IMG/VR virus record: IMGVR_UViG_2585427743_000015
Reading direction: 5' to 3' (one strand)
Length of the DNA stretch: 37,170 bases
From: a virus
Taxonomy: Duplodnaviria; Heunggongvirae; Uroviricota; Caudoviricetes
This document shows, piece by piece, positions 1-3,329 of the stretch; the first letter of the stretch is position 1, and each line of letters opens with the position of its first letter. Below the pieces are notes generated by a model. That model ran no database searches, was not told the DNA's origin, and was given only the letters and a program-made list of their open reading frames with translations. Both the position numbers and the translations under genes were made by a program.

Positions 1-1002
1 TTACCCTCTATTGTCAAAAGGGTTCAATTCAACAGCAGCCTCTAAATGACCTGGAGCAAAATGCGCATAACGCATAGTCATTTTTATATCGCTATGCCCC
101 AGTATTTTTTGCAACACAAGAATATTTCCGCCCCGCATCATAAAATGACTGGCAAACGTGTGACGTAGCACATGAGTTAATTGCCCATCAGGAAGCTCGA
201 TCTTCGCTCTCTTAATTGCAGCGTCAAAAGCCTCATAACATGGTGAAAATAGCGCTCCTCGTTTTTTAGGAAGCATAGCCTGCAATTGAGGTGAAATCGG
301 TACAGTGCGGTTCTTCTTTCCTTTAGTTTTAACAAATGTGATTCGACCGGGCAGTACTTGAGATTGCTTTAATCCTTCTGCTTCACTCCACCGAGCACCA
401 GTCGCAAGCCCAATACGGACAACAACCCCCAAATCTTTATTCCGTGACTCATCACACGCAATCAGAAGGCGTTCAATCTCATCTACATACAGAAACGCCA
501 GTTCCTTTTCTTCCTCACGAAACTTGCGAATACCAGTCAGGGGGTTTTCACCAGACCACTCCCCAAGGCGCTTCAGTTCGGCAAAAACAGCATGTAGATA
601 TGACTGCTCGCGATTAACGGTTGCTTCACTAAGTTTTTTCTTCCCCTTGGGATTCCATTCTCCTGATAGCCTTCTTTCCCGATAAGTAGCAAACATATTT
701 TTGTCAAACTGCGAAGCAAATGGATCTCCCAGCCTGGAACAAATCGCCTCAAGTTTGACTTTGCGCTCTGCACCAGAGGACAAGGTTTTACCGTACATCT
801 CAAACCAACGAGCAATCAACTCAGAAAGACGAGGACCAGAACCATCTTGAAACTCGTCTCCAACTCTACTATTCATTAAACGGCGCTCATAAGAGAGCGC
901 CTCACTTTTTGTCGCAAACTGTTTACGAATGCGTTTTCCCGATGCCCCGTAGGGATAACATTCGCAAAGCCATTTACCTGATGGAATCTTACGAACCGAC
1001 AT
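1..1002 (-). CDS. int: Phage tyrosine integrase (P2/186 family)
   Basis: 333-aa ORF. N-terminus 'RKIPSGKWLCECYPYGASGKRIRKQF' resembles P2-family integrases; C-terminal catalytic region 'LRHTFASHF...GHSDIKMTMRYAH' (R, H-x-x-R, Y). Stop codon is at window positions 1-3. Confidence 0.9.
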   Translation of the reverse strand: MSVRKIPSGKWLCECYPYGASGKRIRKQFATKSEALSYERRLMNSRVGDEFQDGSGPRLSELIARWFEMYGKTLSSGAERKVKLEAICSRLGDPFASQFDKNMFATYRERRLSGEWNPKGKKKLSEATVNREQSYLHAVFAELKRLGEWSGENPLTGIRKFREEEKELAFLYVDEIERLLIACDESRNKDLGVVVRIGLATGARWSEAEGLKQSQVLPGRITFVKTKGKKNRTVPISPQLQAMLPKKRGALFSPCYEAFDAAIKRAKIELPDGQLTHVLRHTFASHFMMRGGNILVLQKILGHSDIKMTMRYAHFAPGHLEAAVELNPFDNRG

Positions 1003-1007
1003 TTTAG

Positions 1008-1355
1008 TTACTTATCACATAAATCAAATGCAGCCTTAGTGACATCCCCCAGACTCTTTTTTAACCCTGGGGTGGCATCATTATCTAGCCAAAATGGATT
1101 ATTGTTATCTAACGGTAACGCACCAAATGTTTTACCTTTTATTCGAGCCAAACCTGTAAGTGCATATAACTTATTATCGTCAAAATTCATTACATAAGGA
1201 TTACCATCAAGACACTGTAATTGAACCTCATCAGTATTAAATGGCCACACCCCATTGAAACTCTCACGTTCAATGGTTTTAAAAGGCATTGCGACGGCGG
1301 AAAAAGAAAACATAGATAAAAAAGTAACTAATAGTTGAACCTTTTTAACTTTCAT
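1008..1355 (-). CDS. Hypothetical secreted protein (prophage cargo)
   Basis: 115-aa ORF with N-terminal signal peptide ('MKVKKVQLLVTFLSMFSFSAVA'), two Cys; visibly AT-rich against GC-rich phage core. Confidence 0.55.
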   Translation of the reverse strand: MKVKKVQLLVTFLSMFSFSAVAMPFKTIERESFNGVWPFNTDEVQLQCLDGNPYVMNFDDNKLYALTGLARIKGKTFGALPLDNNNPFWLDNDATPGLKKSLGDVTKAAFDLCDK

Positions 1356-1384
1356 ATCATTACCTCAATTTAGCTCAAGTAAGA

Positions 1385-2035
1385 TTACAAATTAAAAAAC
1401 GCTCTAGAAATGACACCGCCTACCAAACCCCCTACGCAGATAAAGAATATTATTTCTTTTGGATAAAGTCGGATTAATTCTGAAGCACGAAGTCGGACTT
1501 CTGGTAAGGTCGAACTCTCTGTGTGGCTTGATGCCGATTGTTGCTCTAACCACGACAATGCAGACTGTAACTGAGAACGAGTAAGATCGTTTAAACGTCC
1601 TGTACCGAAATTGATATGGCAATACCGCAGAAGTTTTTGTCGAAGTCCACAGTCTTCACTGTTACGTAGTAATAAACTTACAAGAGCCTTACAGGCATCA
1701 TGATCTTTACATCGCTCAAGCATTGCATGCAGAAAACTCTCCGCTGTTTTATATTGATTTACTGTCATATCATCAATACCAGCTACACCAATCTCCGCAT
1801 GTACTTTTTGCCAAATAATAAACGCTTCAGTATTGCTAGCTTCTGCAATAGCAGCAACCAAGCTATTTAGCTCCTTACGCTGAGCCTTAAGCAAAGGGCG
1901 ATCGTCATCATCATTATTCGAAGGGATTGCGATATTGACGGTATGAGAACCATCATATCGCTCTATCTGAATATTCTTTTCGTGAAAATCACGCCCAGCA
2001 ACGCGATTGTTTGAACCGTTTGAGTTGACGGCCAT
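1385..2035 (-). CDS. Hypothetical C-terminally membrane-anchored protein (prophage cargo)
   Basis: 216-aa ORF. C-terminal hydrophobic helix 'IIFFICVGGLVGGVISRAFF'. N-terminus 'SNGSNNRVAGRDFHE' shares a motif with the C-terminus of the adjacent repressor. Confidence 0.6.
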   Translation of the reverse strand: MAVNSNGSNNRVAGRDFHEKNIQIERYDGSHTVNIAIPSNNDDDDRPLLKAQRKELNSLVAAIAEASNTEAFIIWQKVHAEIGVAGIDDMTVNQYKTAESFLHAMLERCKDHDACKALVSLLLRNSEDCGLRQKLLRYCHINFGTGRLNDLTRSQLQSALSWLEQQSASSHTESSTLPEVRLRASELIRLYPKEIIFFICVGGLVGGVISRAFFNL

Positions 2036-2050
2036 GTCACCTCCCTACTA

Positions 2051-2455
2051 TCACCTGCCCTTAGTTTCGTTATAGTCACGACCAGCGATACGGTTATTAC
2101 CACCAGAAATATTTAACTCACGTCCTGATGGCTGAGTTTCCTTTTCACTGATCGCACCTTTTAAAGCCCCAATCACCGCGTTTTTCACATCTAACGAAGC
2201 TGCTCGAAAGCGAGTAATCAACTCCTGCTCATCATCGTTATAAGTTTCAGGTGAGTGAATTCCCAACACAACATACTGAACATCAAGGCCAAAACGAGAC
2301 AGCGCTGCCAAATACGCAGCATCAGGAAAGCTATCTCCTTTCTCATATCTAAGCTGAGTTAGCTTTTTGACTCCACCAATGTCGCTCATGGCAACTTGAC
2401 TAAGTCCCAATCTTTCCCTTTCCTCACGCAACCGCTGACCAATATCATTTTTCAT
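2051..2455 (-). CDS. Immunity repressor, XRE-family helix-turn-helix (CI/C-like)
   Basis: 134-aa ORF with N-terminal HTH 'LREERERLGLSQVAMSDIGGVKKLTQLRYEKGDS'; divergent from early operon, adjacent to int as in P2/186. Confidence 0.75.
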   Translation of the reverse strand: MKNDIGQRLREERERLGLSQVAMSDIGGVKKLTQLRYEKGDSFPDAAYLAALSRFGLDVQYVVLGIHSPETYNDDEQELITRFRAASLDVKNAVIGALKGAISEKETQPSGRELNISGGNNRIAGRDYNETKGR

Positions 2456-2464
2456 ACAAAAACC

Positions 2465-2488
2465 TTGACAGGTATCTTTTTTGATACC
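2465..2488. promoter_or_regulatory. Switch-region promoter/operator: TTGACA -35-like hexamer followed by perfect palindrome GGTATC-N6-GATACC
   Basis: TTGACA at 2465-2470; inverted repeat GGTATCttttttGATACC at 2471-2488 in the 75-bp gap between the divergent repressor and early operon. Confidence 0.4.
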
Positions 2489-2530
2489 AAAATGATTTCA
2501 CGAGCTATTAGATGATCACAATATACCACT

Positions 2531-2737
2531 ATGAAACAAGTTCTTCACGATACCAGATCACGCATTCCGCGTAACACCGCCACAGGTCCAAGACTGGCAC
2601 TTCGGCTGTCCCTCGAGGAGCGAGCCGTCATTGATGAAATGGCAGCTAAAGAACAACGCTCATCCTCTAACATGGCGCGCATGATCTTCCTTCGCGGCCT
2701 AGAACTAACCCAGAAAGAACAAAACAAATCTTCCTGA
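2531..2737 (+). CDS. Small early regulator, possible ribbon-helix-helix fold
   Basis: 68-aa ORF, first gene of early operon; 'RLSLEERAVIDEMAAKEQRSSSNMARMIFLRGLE' resembles CopG/Arc-type RHH proteins. Confidence 0.5.
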   Translation: MKQVLHDTRSRIPRNTATGPRLALRLSLEERAVIDEMAAKEQRSSSNMARMIFLRGLELTQKEQNKSS

Positions 2738-2753
2738 TCAAGAGGCTAGTGGG

Positions 2754-2957
2754 ATGTCAGGTATAACCATCAATATCAATGTGAATGCCCCCTATGTATC
2801 CCTGCAGAAATATGCAGAGATAACAGGTATCCCTCTTAATACATGCAAAAAGATGTTGGCTGACGGTCGAATTATTATCCGCCCCAAACGCGCCAAAATG
2901 GAAAAGCCTGAAGTAAACCTTGTGGCGATGTTAAAAGACGCTTTGACTAACAGCTAA
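2754..2957 (+). CDS. Cox-like DNA-binding protein (excisionase/early repressor)
   Basis: 67-aa ORF; 'VSLQKYAEITGIPLNTCKKMLADGRI' parallels the DNA-binding region of P2 Cox as remembered. Confidence 0.55.
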   Translation: MSGITININVNAPYVSLQKYAEITGIPLNTCKKMLADGRIIIRPKRAKMEKPEVNLVAMLKDALTNS

Positions 2958-2978
2958 AACAATGAACAGAGCACCATC

Positions 2979-3329
2979 ATGAAAAAAAACGCTAATAATC
3001 CATACTCCAAATTTCGTAATGGCGTAGAACGCCATGTACACCACGTCGCTACCAGTGCATCACGTAGTAACAGTCGCTATAACCTGAACGAGACGCACGC
3101 AACACCGGATGGCCACGCTGTAAAACAAATCGGCGAGCATGCCTGGCTGATTGAGAAAGCTGGAATCGTGGTCCACAAATGCCCACGCAATCCGTTTACC
3201 GGAAACCGCATTTTTGCTCTAAGCAGTGGCGACAATCAGTTCGGGCAGGATTTCACATTATACGAAGCACTTCGCACGGTTGATCGTCTGCTTCGCGGGC
3301 AAAGTTTTATTAAACAGGCTGATTTATAA
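2979..3329 (+). CDS. Hypothetical early protein
   Basis: 116-aa ORF in early operon; no recognisable motif. Confidence 0.5.
   Translation: MKKNANNPYSKFRNGVERHVHHVATSASRSNSRYNLNETHATPDGHAVKQIGEHAWLIEKAGIVVHKCPRNPFTGNRIFALSSGDNQFGQDFTLYEALRTVDRLLRGQSFIKQADL

What the first reader, a model, noticed from the sequence alone, without database searches (positions are those of the whole stretch)
1008..2455. Repressor C-terminus and adjacent membrane protein N-terminus share a conserved peptide motif
The repressor ends with 'SGGNNRIAGRDYNETKGR' and the next gene begins 'MAVNSNGSNNRVAGRDFHEK'. The DNA differs at synonymous positions (AATAAC vs AACAAT, CGT vs CGC, GGT vs GGG), so the motif looks conserved at protein level rather than a recent duplication. 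A membrane-anchored protein carrying the repressor's terminal motif, plus a secreted protein, in an AT-rich insert between int and the repressor, suggests a signal-linked or exclusion module.
Basis: seen in the sequence. Interest (0 to 1): 0.6.

Follow-up and report, generated by a model that had tools for sequence, protein, structure and literature searches.

The report
Repressor tail mirrored on membrane partner
A prophage's immunity repressor ends in a short peptide that is repeated at the start of the membrane-anchored protein encoded next to it; this matched pair recurs and co-varies in many unrelated prophages, which suggests an undescribed physical link between lysogeny control and the cell membrane.

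Summary
In this P2-like E. coli prophage the HTH repressor (2051-2455, -) ends ...LNISGGNNRIAGRDYNETKGR. The next gene (1385-2035, -), a tail-anchored Flk_N-family membrane protein, starts MAVNSNGSNNRVAGRDFHE. The match is far above chance: score 62, against 31 for the next best match in the whole window.

It is also general. In 68 distinct repressor/downstream-gene pairs the repressor tail and the partner's N-terminus carry the same 15-20 residue G/N-rich peptide. These come from P2-like and Mu-like prophages of Gamma- and Betaproteobacteria. The peptide's flavour differs between loci but matches within a locus (permutation z = 14). Codon use shows no gene conversion (111 shared codons, 110.8 expected).

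Both segments are predicted disordered. Partners are nearly all membrane proteins, and 20 lack the Flk_N domain. The genes overlap or lie within 35 nt in 66 of 68 pairs.

The layout (C-terminus of one gene, N-terminus of the adjacent gene) is that of amyloid-signalling motif pairs (HET-S/NWD2, BASS, Bab/Agp), here on a phage repressor. Profile membership in BASS1-3 was not demonstrated.

Most likely the peptides pair with each other, coupling repressor to membrane partner. The biological output is untested. The DUF2511 gene is variable cargo, not part of the module.

The parts
2051..2455 (-). Immunity repressor, 134 aa: XRE/Cro-C1-type HTH (residues 1-65), two helices (74-105) and a disordered tail (102-134).
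   Evidence: ORF. HTH hits in Pfam, NCBIfam and PHROGs. A profile of the family hits the P22 C2 repressor N-domain in the PDB at E = 9e-6. AF2 model. It sits divergent from the Arc-like/Cox-like early genes and next to int.
2066..2116 (-). Tail motif of the repressor, residues 114-130, LNISGGNNRIAGRDYNE.
   Evidence: pLDDT is below 50. It is conserved in homologues. Logo.
2036..2050 (-). 15-nt spacer after the repressor's TGA stop: TAG TAG GGA GGT GAC. It holds two further in-frame stops and the Shine-Dalgarno sequence GGGAGGTG of the membrane gene.
   Evidence: No terminator-like site lies between the genes.
1385..2035 (-). Tail-anchored membrane partner, 216 aa, Flk_N family (PF27202): N-terminal motif, helical domain, linker and C-terminal TM helix.
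   Evidence: It belongs to PHROG 5825, function unknown.
1979..2029 (-). N-terminal motif of the membrane protein, residues 3-19, VNSNGSNNRVAGRDFHE. This is the copy that mirrors the repressor tail.
   Evidence: pLDDT is about 50.
1919..1978 (-). Second, degenerate motif repeat, residues 20-39, KNIQIERYDGSHTVNIAIPS. In relatives it reads .Q.IGRD..NI.IP.
   Evidence: Alignment A2 and the N-termini.
1520..1900 (-). Flk_N helical domain, residues 46-172, pLDDT above 95.
1391..1486 (-). C-terminal transmembrane anchor, residues 184-215.
   Evidence: AF2 helix 184-215 and the hydrophobic stretch EIIFFICVGGLVGGVISRAFFNL.
1008..1355 (-). Secreted DUF2511 protein. This is AT-rich cargo in a variable slot, not a conserved part of the module.
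   Evidence: Pfam DUF2511 at E = 2e-6. GC is 35%. Related loci carry unrelated genes at this position.
1..1002 (-). P2-type tyrosine integrase. It gives the context: this is the end of the prophage.
2465..2957 (+). Divergent early region: a promoter-like site (2465-2493), an Arc-like gene (2531-2737) and a Cox-like gene (2754-2957).

Best explanation
The repressor and the gene after it form a two-gene immunity module found in P2-like and Mu-like prophages. The repressor carries a disordered C-terminal 'address' peptide. The co-transcribed, membrane-anchored partner carries the same peptide at its cytoplasmic N-terminus.

I propose that the two peptides bind each other by strand-to-strand (beta) pairing, as matched terminal motifs do in amyloid-signalling gene pairs. 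The membrane partner can then capture or co-assemble with repressor molecules at the inner membrane. This would set how much free repressor is available and would link a membrane or envelope condition to maintenance or loss of lysogeny. Different flavours of the peptide would keep co-resident prophages from cross-talking.

Shown: the motif pair exists, it is conserved, it co-varies within loci at the protein level, its genes are arranged as an operon, both segments are predicted disordered, the partner is membrane-anchored, and the motif match is independent of the rest of the partner.

Inferred: direct peptide-peptide contact, and membrane capture of the repressor.

Speculative: the direction and trigger of the signal, and whether the assembly is amyloid-like.
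For: 1. Conservation. The motif is present in all 120 closest homologues of the membrane protein and in most full-length close repressor homologues across Enterobacterales. The two logos are nearly identical: [IV]N[VS]SG..NR[VI]AGRD[YF][NH]EN.

2. Generality. There are 68 distinct matched pairs from genome and viral contigs. Genera include Gilliamella, Pectobacterium, Aeromonas, Pseudomonas, Bordetella, Burkholderia, Jeongeupia, Oleiphilus and Rhodocyclaceae.

3. Co-variation.
- In 15 loci chosen only by homology of the partner's body, the cognate score is 45.8 against 28.9 +/- 3.5 for permuted partners, with 0 of 100000 permutations reaching it.
- In 62 dereplicated loci with no selection, it is 32.3 against 19.4 +/- 0.9, z = 14.4.
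- For paralogous segments that evolve independently, cognate and non-cognate similarity should be equal.

4. No DNA homogenisation. Of 242 identical aligned residues, 111 use the same codon, against 110.8 expected.

5. The flavour follows the locus, not the host. In Pectobacterium colocasium the P2-like prophage has ..GQRVAGRDYHE | ..NNRVAGRDYYE, while a Mu-like prophage has QIFNGDISGQFAGNQIIN | QEFNGTAQGQFSSRDIIN.

6. The motif match does not depend on the Flk_N body. Twenty matched partners lack it and belong to other, mostly TM-containing, families. In two loci (L016, L052) two successive downstream genes carry the motif.

7. Both segments have low pLDDT and are attached to confident folded domains.

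8. Operon structure. Seventeen matched pairs overlap and 49 lie 0-35 nt apart. In the window there is no terminator between the genes and there is a strong SD.

9. Some partners have a periplasmic Cys-containing domain after the TM helix (L012, L020, L046, L134, L150, L151). This is the layout of a transmembrane signal transducer.
Against: - No direct evidence of binding was obtained.
- AF2 gives no beta structure for either segment in the monomer.
- A few repressors have such tails but no recognisable partner (L018, L030, L032, L163, L164). The tail may therefore have a function of its own, for example repressor self-association.
- Conserved charged residues (R, D, E) in the core AGRD..E are not typical of a purely hydrophobic zipper.
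- Co-variation could also arise if both peptides fit a third, co-evolving site.
Confidence: 0.5

Rival explanations
1. True amyloid (prion-like) signalling. The membrane partner, once clustered or activated, folds its N-terminal motif into a cross-beta template. This template converts the repressor's tail and drives cooperative, switch-like aggregation and inactivation of the repressor, as NWD2 does to HET-S or Agp does to Bab. This is a special case of the best explanation, with a specific structural mechanism.
For: - The gene layout is identical to that of amyloid-signalling pairs: the motif lies at the C-terminus of gene 1 and at the N-terminus of the adjacent collinear gene, with short or negative spacing.
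- Such signalling has been shown in an E. coli prophage defence island (Bab/Agp).
- The composition is N 14.5% and G 12.3%, with almost no P, L, M, C or W.
- Conserved glycines divide the motif into short segments.
- Enterobacterial partners carry two motif repeats against one in the repressor.
- Longer tails look like two windings, for example FHGSVGQSVAGSITNKSGVTFNVG.
- Short words are shared with experimentally amyloid BASS families: AGRD in BASS1, N.ISGG..GRD in BASS2 and FHGP in BASS3.
- As a population, the real segments match BASS1/2 HMMs about 6 times more often than their own shuffles do.
Against: - No individual motif of the window scores above negative controls with BASS1-3 HMMs: 3.1-3.7 bits against the best negatives at 8.7-11.9.
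- The population enrichment is inflated by relatedness among the sequences.
- The partners are not an NLR/STAND sensor and a pore-forming effector.
- An irreversible aggregate is an odd way to control a repressor that must also be inherited stably.
- No biophysical data exist.
Confidence: 0.25
2. Molecular mimicry at a third site. The repressor tail normally docks on a folded surface, and the partner's N-terminus mimics it and competes for that surface. The surface could be the repressor's own core or dimer partner, or the helical Flk_N domain. The peptides would never touch each other.
For: - Tails without partners exist, so the tail may have an intramolecular role.
- Co-variation is also expected under this model.
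Against: - Twenty matched partners lack the Flk_N domain, so that domain cannot be the common receptor.
- AF2 docks neither the tail on the repressor nor the N-terminus on the Flk_N domain; pLDDT is below 50 for both.
Confidence: 0.15
3. A shared tag read by a host factor, such as a protease, chaperone or targeting machinery. Repressor and membrane protein would be processed in parallel without meeting.
For: - Terminal disordered peptides are typical degrons.
- From established knowledge, not tested here: the C-terminus of the Mu repressor governs its degradation by ClpXP.
Against: - The flavours differ between prophages of one host species and match within each locus.
- A host factor would impose one motif per host, not one per locus.
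- One motif is C-terminal and the other N-terminal.
Confidence: 0.05
4. No function. The match is chance similarity of low-complexity ends, a relic of an old duplication, or a product of gene conversion.
For: The segments are short and compositionally biased.
Against: - Shuffles and the window-wide scan exclude chance.
- The motif is conserved over deep divergence.
- Cognate similarity exceeds non-cognate similarity.
- Codon identity is exactly at the random expectation.
Confidence: 0.02

Closest known systems
Amyloid-signalling motif gene pairs: fungal HET-S/NWD2; bacterial BASS1-10 (Dyrka et al. 2020, bioRxiv 10.1101/2020.01.06.895854); E. coli Bab/Agp with BASS11 (bioRxiv 10.1101/2024.11.07.622273)
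   Same: - A 15-25 residue motif is shared between the C-terminus of one protein and the N-terminus of the protein encoded by the adjacent collinear gene.
- Intergenic distances are tiny or negative.
- The composition is rich in G, N and Q.
- There are several motif flavours, matched within pairs.
- Sometimes several partners carry one motif.
- One partner acts at the membrane.
- The location is a prophage, as for Bab/Agp.
- Short words are shared with BASS1-3 (AGRD, ISGG, FHGP).
   Different: - The C-terminal-motif protein is a DNA-binding phage repressor, not a Bell/HeLo pore-former.
- The N-terminal-motif protein is a small tail-anchored or bitopic membrane protein, not an NLR/STAND or TPR sensor.
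- The hosts are unicellular Proteobacteria, whereas BASS1-10 were reported as specific to multicellular Actinobacteria and Cyanobacteria.
- No significant profile match to BASS1-3 was found.
- Amyloid formation is untested.
[quoted passage not shown]
   Same: It has a homologous cytoplasmic helical domain (Flk_N, PF27202; NCBIfam Flk partial hit at E = 8.6e-16) and a C-terminal membrane anchor.
   Different: - True Flk proteins are 290-430 aa, start MQP.SGPG... and lack the N-terminal motif.
- The window protein scores 58 bits against an equivalog cut-off of 353.
- The window protein is encoded in a prophage immunity operon, not at the flk locus.
Membrane-spanning anti-sigma factor / ECF sigma pairs, and phage repressor/antirepressor modules such as ICEBs1 ImmR/ImmA (named from general knowledge as analogies)
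   Same: A transcription factor is encoded next to, and co-expressed with, a protein that can sequester or inactivate it. In the anti-sigma case the cytoplasmic N-terminus of the membrane protein binds the factor, and a periplasmic domain senses the signal.
   Different: No homology to either system. The contact here would be between two copies of one short peptide rather than between folded domains. No protease domain is present.
Lambda cI-rexA-rexB (from general knowledge)
   Same: A membrane protein gene is co-transcribed with the immunity repressor and expressed in the lysogen. This is the precedent for an exclusion or abortive-infection function at this position.
   Different: There is no sequence relation, Rex proteins share no motif with cI, and PADLOC models do not hit the window proteins.

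Membership tests
Amyloid-signalling motif pair (BASS / HET-s-type) | A short motif shared by the C-terminus of one protein and the N-terminus of the protein encoded by an adjacent, collinear gene. | tested here: met
   Window. There are 68 distinct pairs elsewhere; 66 of 68 overlap or lie within 35 nt.
Amyloid-signalling motif pair (BASS / HET-s-type) | The partners are an NLR/STAND-type (or other oligomerising) sensor and a cell-death effector (Bell, HeLo, Bab, TIR and others). | tested here: not met
   The partners are an XRE-type HTH repressor and a Flk_N tail-anchored protein or another small membrane protein. No NB-ARC, NACHT or Bell domain is present.
Amyloid-signalling motif pair (BASS / HET-s-type) | A profile match to a described BASS family (BASS1, 2 and 3 tested). 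| tested here: not met
   HMMs were built from instances transcribed from table S2. The window tail scores 3.7 bits and the window N-terminus 3.1 bits, against best negative controls of 8.7-11.9 bits. Only 3 distant tails beat all negatives for BASS2. There is a population-level enrichment of about 6-fold over shuffles. BASS4-11 were not tested.
Amyloid-signalling motif pair (BASS / HET-s-type) | The motif forms cross-beta fibrils, and the sensor-side motif templates the effector-side motif. | not testable with these tools
   Indirect only: G/N-rich composition and disorder in the monomers.
Flk (flagellar biosynthesis regulator, NCBIfam NF007987 equivalog) | A full-length match above the curated cut-off. 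| tested here: not met
   58.1 bits against a cut-off of 353. Only residues 37-166 align to model positions 20-149 of 339.
Flk_N domain family (PF27202) | Presence of the Flk_N helical domain. | tested here: met
   Precomputed PF27202 on the homologues, named Flk_N. A profile search retrieves true Flk proteins.
Phage immunity repressor of the XRE / Cro-C1 type | An N-terminal HTH of the lambda-repressor-like fold. | tested here: met
   The family profile hits the P22 C2 N-domain at E = 9e-6 and ICEBs1 ImmR at E = 1e-4. PHROG repressor families hit it. AF2 gives five helices in residues 5-64. Single-sequence Pfam scores are below the gathering thresholds.
Phage immunity repressor of the XRE / Cro-C1 type | Position at the lysis-lysogeny switch: divergent from the early operon and next to int. 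| tested here: met
   Repression itself was not tested.
LexA/CI-type self-cleaving repressors | A C-terminal S24 peptidase domain. | tested here: not met
   No such domain was found. The protein is 134 aa and ends in the disordered tail.
Known anti-phage defence systems (PADLOC-DB v2) | A match of the membrane or DUF2511 protein to a defence-system model. | tested here: not met
   No hit for either. The repressor hits only generic HTH models.

The most novel reading that the evidence does not exclude
Prophage lysogeny in many P2-like and Mu-like phages of Proteobacteria would be controlled by prion-like (amyloid) signalling. A membrane-anchored sensor nucleates a cross-beta fold that propagates into the C-terminal tail of the immunity repressor and switches it off. 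Different motif flavours act as orthogonal address codes for co-resident prophages. This would be the first amyloid-signalling pair whose target is a transcription factor rather than a death effector. It would also extend such signalling to unicellular bacteria at large, including about 9% of complete E. coli genomes.
Probability: 0.25. Interest if true: 0.92.

Novelty: new variant of a known kind. Interest (0 to 1): 0.8.

Why it matters
How temperate phages other than the SOS-inducible ones decide to leave lysogeny is largely unknown. P2-type phages are the classic 'non-inducible' case.

A conserved, co-evolving peptide link between the immunity repressor and a membrane protein made from the same operon would supply a concrete, testable route from the envelope to the genetic switch, or from the switch to a membrane effector.

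The module is common. A region at least 80% matching this one is present in 505 of 5426 complete E. coli genomes, including ETEC H10407. It occurs in two unrelated phage lifestyles, integrase-based P2-like and transposable Mu-like.

If the pairing is amyloid-like, it widens amyloid signalling in three ways: from cell-death control to gene regulation, from NLR-type sensors to small membrane proteins, and from multicellular to unicellular bacteria.

The flavour-specific pairing would also be a ready-made set of orthogonal short interaction tags.

Finally, it suggests that the flagellar regulator Flk is a motif-less relative of a prophage protein family.

Tried and rejected
1. Read-through or fusion of the two ORFs. 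They are in frame but separated by TGA TAG TAG. No fused homologues were seen among 240 homologues.

2. Recent duplication or gene conversion. Rejected by codon analysis, 111 shared codons against 110.8 expected.

3. Chance or low complexity. Rejected by shuffles, the window-wide scan and permutations.

4. Host-factor tag. Disfavoured because one host species carries two flavours, each matched within its own locus.

5. The DUF2511 protein as a third component. Rejected as a conserved part, because that slot is variable.

6. A third motif-bearing protein elsewhere in the prophage. None found.

7. Complex prediction from the natural two-ORF translation. 

8. Fold assignment of the Flk_N domain.
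- Foldseek against the PDB gave nothing significant.
- A sequence profile against the PDB gave nothing.
- Pfam gave only weak GemA and ORF6C hits.

9. Membership in BASS1-3 by HMM. Not shown for the window motif.

10. Defence-system models. No hit.

11. Literature. Six searches found no description of a repressor-associated paired motif or of prophage Flk_N proteins. The BASS and ASM papers checked do not mention HTH proteins or repressors.

12. Characterised phages. Only one prophage-derived E. coli record and three Ralstonia phages carry a relative of the membrane protein.
Full report
**What the window is.** The first 3.4 kb are identical to a prophage of E. coli ETEC H10407 and related strains. 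A region at least 80% matching is present in 505 of 5426 complete E. coli genomes. The nearest phage record is a Peduoviridae (Xuanwuvirus, P2/P88-like) prophage.

The layout on the - strand is:
- integrase, 1-1002;
- a secreted DUF2511 protein, 1008-1355;
- a 216-aa protein, 1385-2035;
- a 134-aa HTH protein, 2051-2455.

On the + strand lie an Arc-like gene and a Cox-like gene. The HTH protein therefore sits where P2-type phages keep their immunity repressor. Its family profile matches the DNA-binding domains of P22 C2 and ICEBs1 ImmR.

**The observation.** The repressor ends ...GRELNISGGNNRIAGRDYNETKGR, and the next protein begins MAVNSNGSNNRVAGRDFHEKNIQ.
- Ten of the 17 aligned residues are identical, and only four of those use the same codon.
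- The local alignment score is 62, against 20.9 +/- 4.3 for shuffled N-termini (maximum 45 in 5000).
- In a six-frame scan of the whole 37-kb window, the best match of the tail is the adjacent N-terminus. The next best scores 31.
- The two ORFs are in frame but separated by TGA TAG TAG followed by a strong Shine-Dalgarno sequence, so read-through is not the explanation.

**Conservation.**
- All 120 closest homologues of the 216-aa protein start with M.VNS.G..NR.AGRDF.EN.IQI..FDG.HT.NIAIPS. They come from Escherichia, Klebsiella, Serratia, Erwinia, Enterobacter, Raoultella and others, and reach down to 59% identity.
- Most full-length close homologues of the repressor end INVSG.GNR.AGRDY.ENKK. 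They come from Yersinia, Serratia, Klebsiella, Salmonella, Dickeya, Pectobacterium and Hafnia.
- More distant repressor homologues carry other G/N/Q-rich tails, for example QIFNGDISGQFAGNQIINNG and VFHGDVGQVVNADTANQQGLSISMGG.

**Generalisation and co-variation.** I fetched 80 loci from one-genome-per-species contigs and 80 from viral contigs, using the repressor family as query. For each I compared the repressor tail with the N-terminus of the next gene on the same strand.

The tail and the downstream N-terminus carry the same peptide in locus after locus, although the peptide itself changes:

| Locus | Organism | Repressor tail | Partner N-terminus |
|---|---|---|---|
| L022 | Bordetella | KQVFHGQVGQ | METQIFRGQVGQ |
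| L015 | Rhodocyclaceae | QQINGPISGGVAGRDFVQ | QEINGDVEGGIAGRDIVR |
| L020 | Jeongeupia | TVDYGNAQIGQASAGDIVN | TVSFGGAQIDQAAAGDINN |
| L019 | MAG (Proteobacteria bacterium) | KQVFKGSVSGVAGRDVVK | KQTFKGPVGDVAGNDVVK |
| L014 | Pectobacterium | QIFNGDISGQFAGNQIIN | QEFNGTAQGQFSSRDIIN |

The statistics are as follows.
- In 15 loci chosen only because the body of the partner is homologous to the window protein, the mean cognate score is 45.8. Permuted partners give 28.9 +/- 3.5, and none of 100000 permutations reaches the observed value.
- In 62 dereplicated loci with no selection at all, it is 32.3 against 19.4 +/- 0.9, z = 14.4.

If the two segments were old paralogues drifting independently, a tail would resemble its own partner no more than it resembles the partner in another lineage. 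The excess therefore means either selection for matching or DNA homogenisation. Homogenisation is excluded: across 26 loci, 242 identical aligned residues use the same codon 111 times, against 110.8 expected from codon usage.

**Host or locus?** In Pectobacterium colocasium, a P2-like prophage has INVTGSGQRVAGRDYHE | MTVEAQGDNNRVAGRDYYE. A Mu-like prophage of the same species has the FNG-type pair (L014). The flavour belongs to the locus, which argues against a tag read by a host factor.

**Genomic setting.**
- Enterobacterial and Aeromonas loci are P2-like, with an integrase downstream.
- The Gilliamella, Pseudomonas, Pectobacterium, Bordetella, Burkholderia and Jeongeupia loci have a divergent small HTH gene, a gene of about 300 aa and a transposase-sized gene of about 590 aa, with lysis-like genes downstream. 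By gene order this is a Mu/BcepMu-like transposable prophage; that is an inference, and those proteins were not searched.
- Of 68 distinct matched pairs, 17 overlap (mostly ATGA), 49 are 0-35 nt apart and 2 are farther apart.
- In the window no terminator-like site separates the genes.
- Repressor homologues without such a tail lie next to unrelated genes, and their scores sit at background. An example is the Pseudomonas chromosomal paralogues followed by a response regulator.

**The partner.** The AF2 model of the window protein has the following parts:
- residues 1-40, low confidence (pLDDT about 50);
- residues 46-172, a very confident helical domain;
- a short linker;
- residues 184-215, a C-terminal TM helix.

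It is thus a tail-anchored protein whose motif faces the cytoplasm.

The helical domain is Pfam Flk_N (PF27202). It aligns to the N-terminal part of the flagellar regulator Flk, far below that family's cut-off.

An exhaustive profile search finds only 175 representatives at 50% identity among 1.84 billion proteins.
- Prophage-type members carry the N-terminal motif in several flavours.
- True Flk proteins (MQP.SGPG..., 290-430 aa) do not carry it.
- One member (P0388) fuses a Rha domain to the Flk_N domain.

Fold searches give no confident assignment:
- Foldseek against the PDB gave nothing significant.
- A sequence profile against the PDB gave nothing.
- Weak GemA and ORF6C Pfam hits recur.

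Enterobacterial partners have two motif repeats (NR.AGRDF.E, then .Q.IGRD..NI.IP). The second is degenerate in the window.

**The motif match is independent of the Flk_N body**. Among 115 distinct pairs:
- 48 are matched and have a Flk_N body;
- 20 are matched and lack it;
- 2 have Flk_N but a low alignment score;
- 45 have neither.

The 20 belong to other small proteins. Some have one or two central TM helices, some have zinc ribbons, and some are bitopic proteins with a coiled coil, a TM helix and a conserved periplasmic Cys-containing domain. In L016 and L052 two successive downstream genes both start with the motif. What these partners share is the motif and, with few exceptions, membrane anchoring.

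**The repressor.** AF2 gives an HTH domain (residues 1-65), two helices (74-105) and a tail (102-134) with pLDDT below 50. It has no peptidase domain, so LexA-type self-cleavage is not available.

**The DUF2511 gene.** It lies in the most AT-rich stretch (35% GC). In related loci that position holds unrelated genes: a 291-aa protein, a 242-aa membrane protein, a 126-aa secreted protein and a VasI-like protein. It is cargo in a variable slot, not a conserved third component.

**Comparison with what is known.** The gene layout is the defining one of amyloid-signalling motif pairs. [quoted passage not shown] Those pairs were mostly collinear and often overlapping. BASS1 and BASS3 formed fibrils and prions. 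Bab/Agp in an E. coli prophage island uses BASS11 for abortive infection.

The logos of our tails and N-termini are nearly identical: [IV]N[VS]SG..NR[VI]AGRD[YF][NH]EN. They are rich in N and G and almost free of P, L, M, C and W. By eye they share short words with three BASS families:
- BASS1, ASGSARIYQAGRDQHITER;
- BASS2, NTISGGTQNGPVLQGRDFS;
- BASS3, NTFHGPTAFQ.G.

I tested this with HMMs built from transcribed instances.
- The window motifs score 3.1-3.7 bits, below the best negative controls (8.7-11.9 bits).
- Only three distant tails beat all controls for BASS2.
- As a population, the real segments are about 6-fold enriched over their own shuffles. Relatedness among the sequences inflates this figure.

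Membership in BASS1-3 is therefore not shown. The partner domains, a repressor and a small membrane protein, are unlike any described pair.

Searches of the held literature found no description of this module. PADLOC has no model for it. PHROGs lists the partner as function unknown.

**Mechanism.** The best-supported reading is that the two peptides are a locus-specific interaction tag that brings repressor and membrane partner together. The most likely means is direct strand-to-strand pairing, because the motif itself is the only element common to all partner classes.

The consequence I think most likely is capture or co-assembly of the repressor at the membrane. This would tune or switch off repression in response to a membrane or envelope condition. 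The bitopic partners with periplasmic domains look like transmembrane transducers of this kind.

The opposite direction, in which the repressor's state triggers a membrane effector in the manner of Rex, cannot be excluded.

Whether the assembly is a simple complex or a self-propagating cross-beta structure is open. I give the amyloid version about one chance in four.

Rivals are mimicry at a third site, a host-factor tag, and no function. The last two are disfavoured or refuted by the data above.

**Verdict.** The AT-rich insert and the role proposed for the secreted protein are not supported.

Noticed in passing
window 2531-2737 (+) versus 2545-2682 (-): RefSeq for ETEC H10407 annotates a 45-aa hypothetical protein on the - strand here. 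The + strand ORF of 68 aa matches the PHROG 'Arc-like repressor' family at E = 1e-28 and is annotated as such in phage 520873. The RefSeq call is probably on the wrong strand.
   Followed up: partly
window 1008-1355 (-): The DUF2511 secreted protein sits in the lowest-GC stretch of the region (35%) in a slot that holds different genes in related prophages. It looks like a typical moron position between the immunity module and int.
   Followed up: partly
L016 4838-5137 and L052 4861-5628: A second downstream gene also begins with the motif: MGKTNKDNHPHISVKGDRNIVAGGDIYI in L016 and MESGNGLTQEFNGNVGQVAGGNIYNYY in L052. One repressor tail may therefore address two partners.
   Followed up: no
L012, L013, L020, L046, L134, L150, L151 (partner genes): Partners of 260-340 aa have the motif, a coiled coil, a TM helix and a conserved periplasmic segment C.F.G..Y..GS..(D)N...PD..CV. 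This may be a sensor domain.
   Followed up: no
proteins P0318-P0378: True chromosomal Flk proteins share the Flk_N domain with the prophage proteins but lack the N-terminal motif. Flk may be a domesticated relative of the prophage family, or the reverse.
   Followed up: no
protein P0388: This protein is a fusion of a Phage_pRha domain (E = 6e-26) with an Flk_N-like domain. It links the helical domain to phage regulatory proteins of the antirepressor type.
   Followed up: no
[not shown]
   Followed up: partly
L018, L030, L032, L163, L164: These repressor homologues have long G/Q-rich tails (for example VFHGKVGQQIHGDITAPQTINVGRKKK), but no matching N-terminus was found nearby. Either the partner was lost or the tail works alone.
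   Followed up: partly
L002 (phage 520873, NC_049344) 1039-3065: In this record the integrase is split into two CDS, and the membrane-partner gene matches in three pieces and is not annotated. The cause is either frameshifts from sequencing or a decaying copy.
   Followed up: no
L084 4058-4705 and L083 4778-6118: In the Pectobacterium P2-like prophage the cargo slot after the module holds a VasI-like protein. In a related contig it also holds an AAA_15/AAA_21 ATPase, which is defence-like cargo.
   Followed up: no
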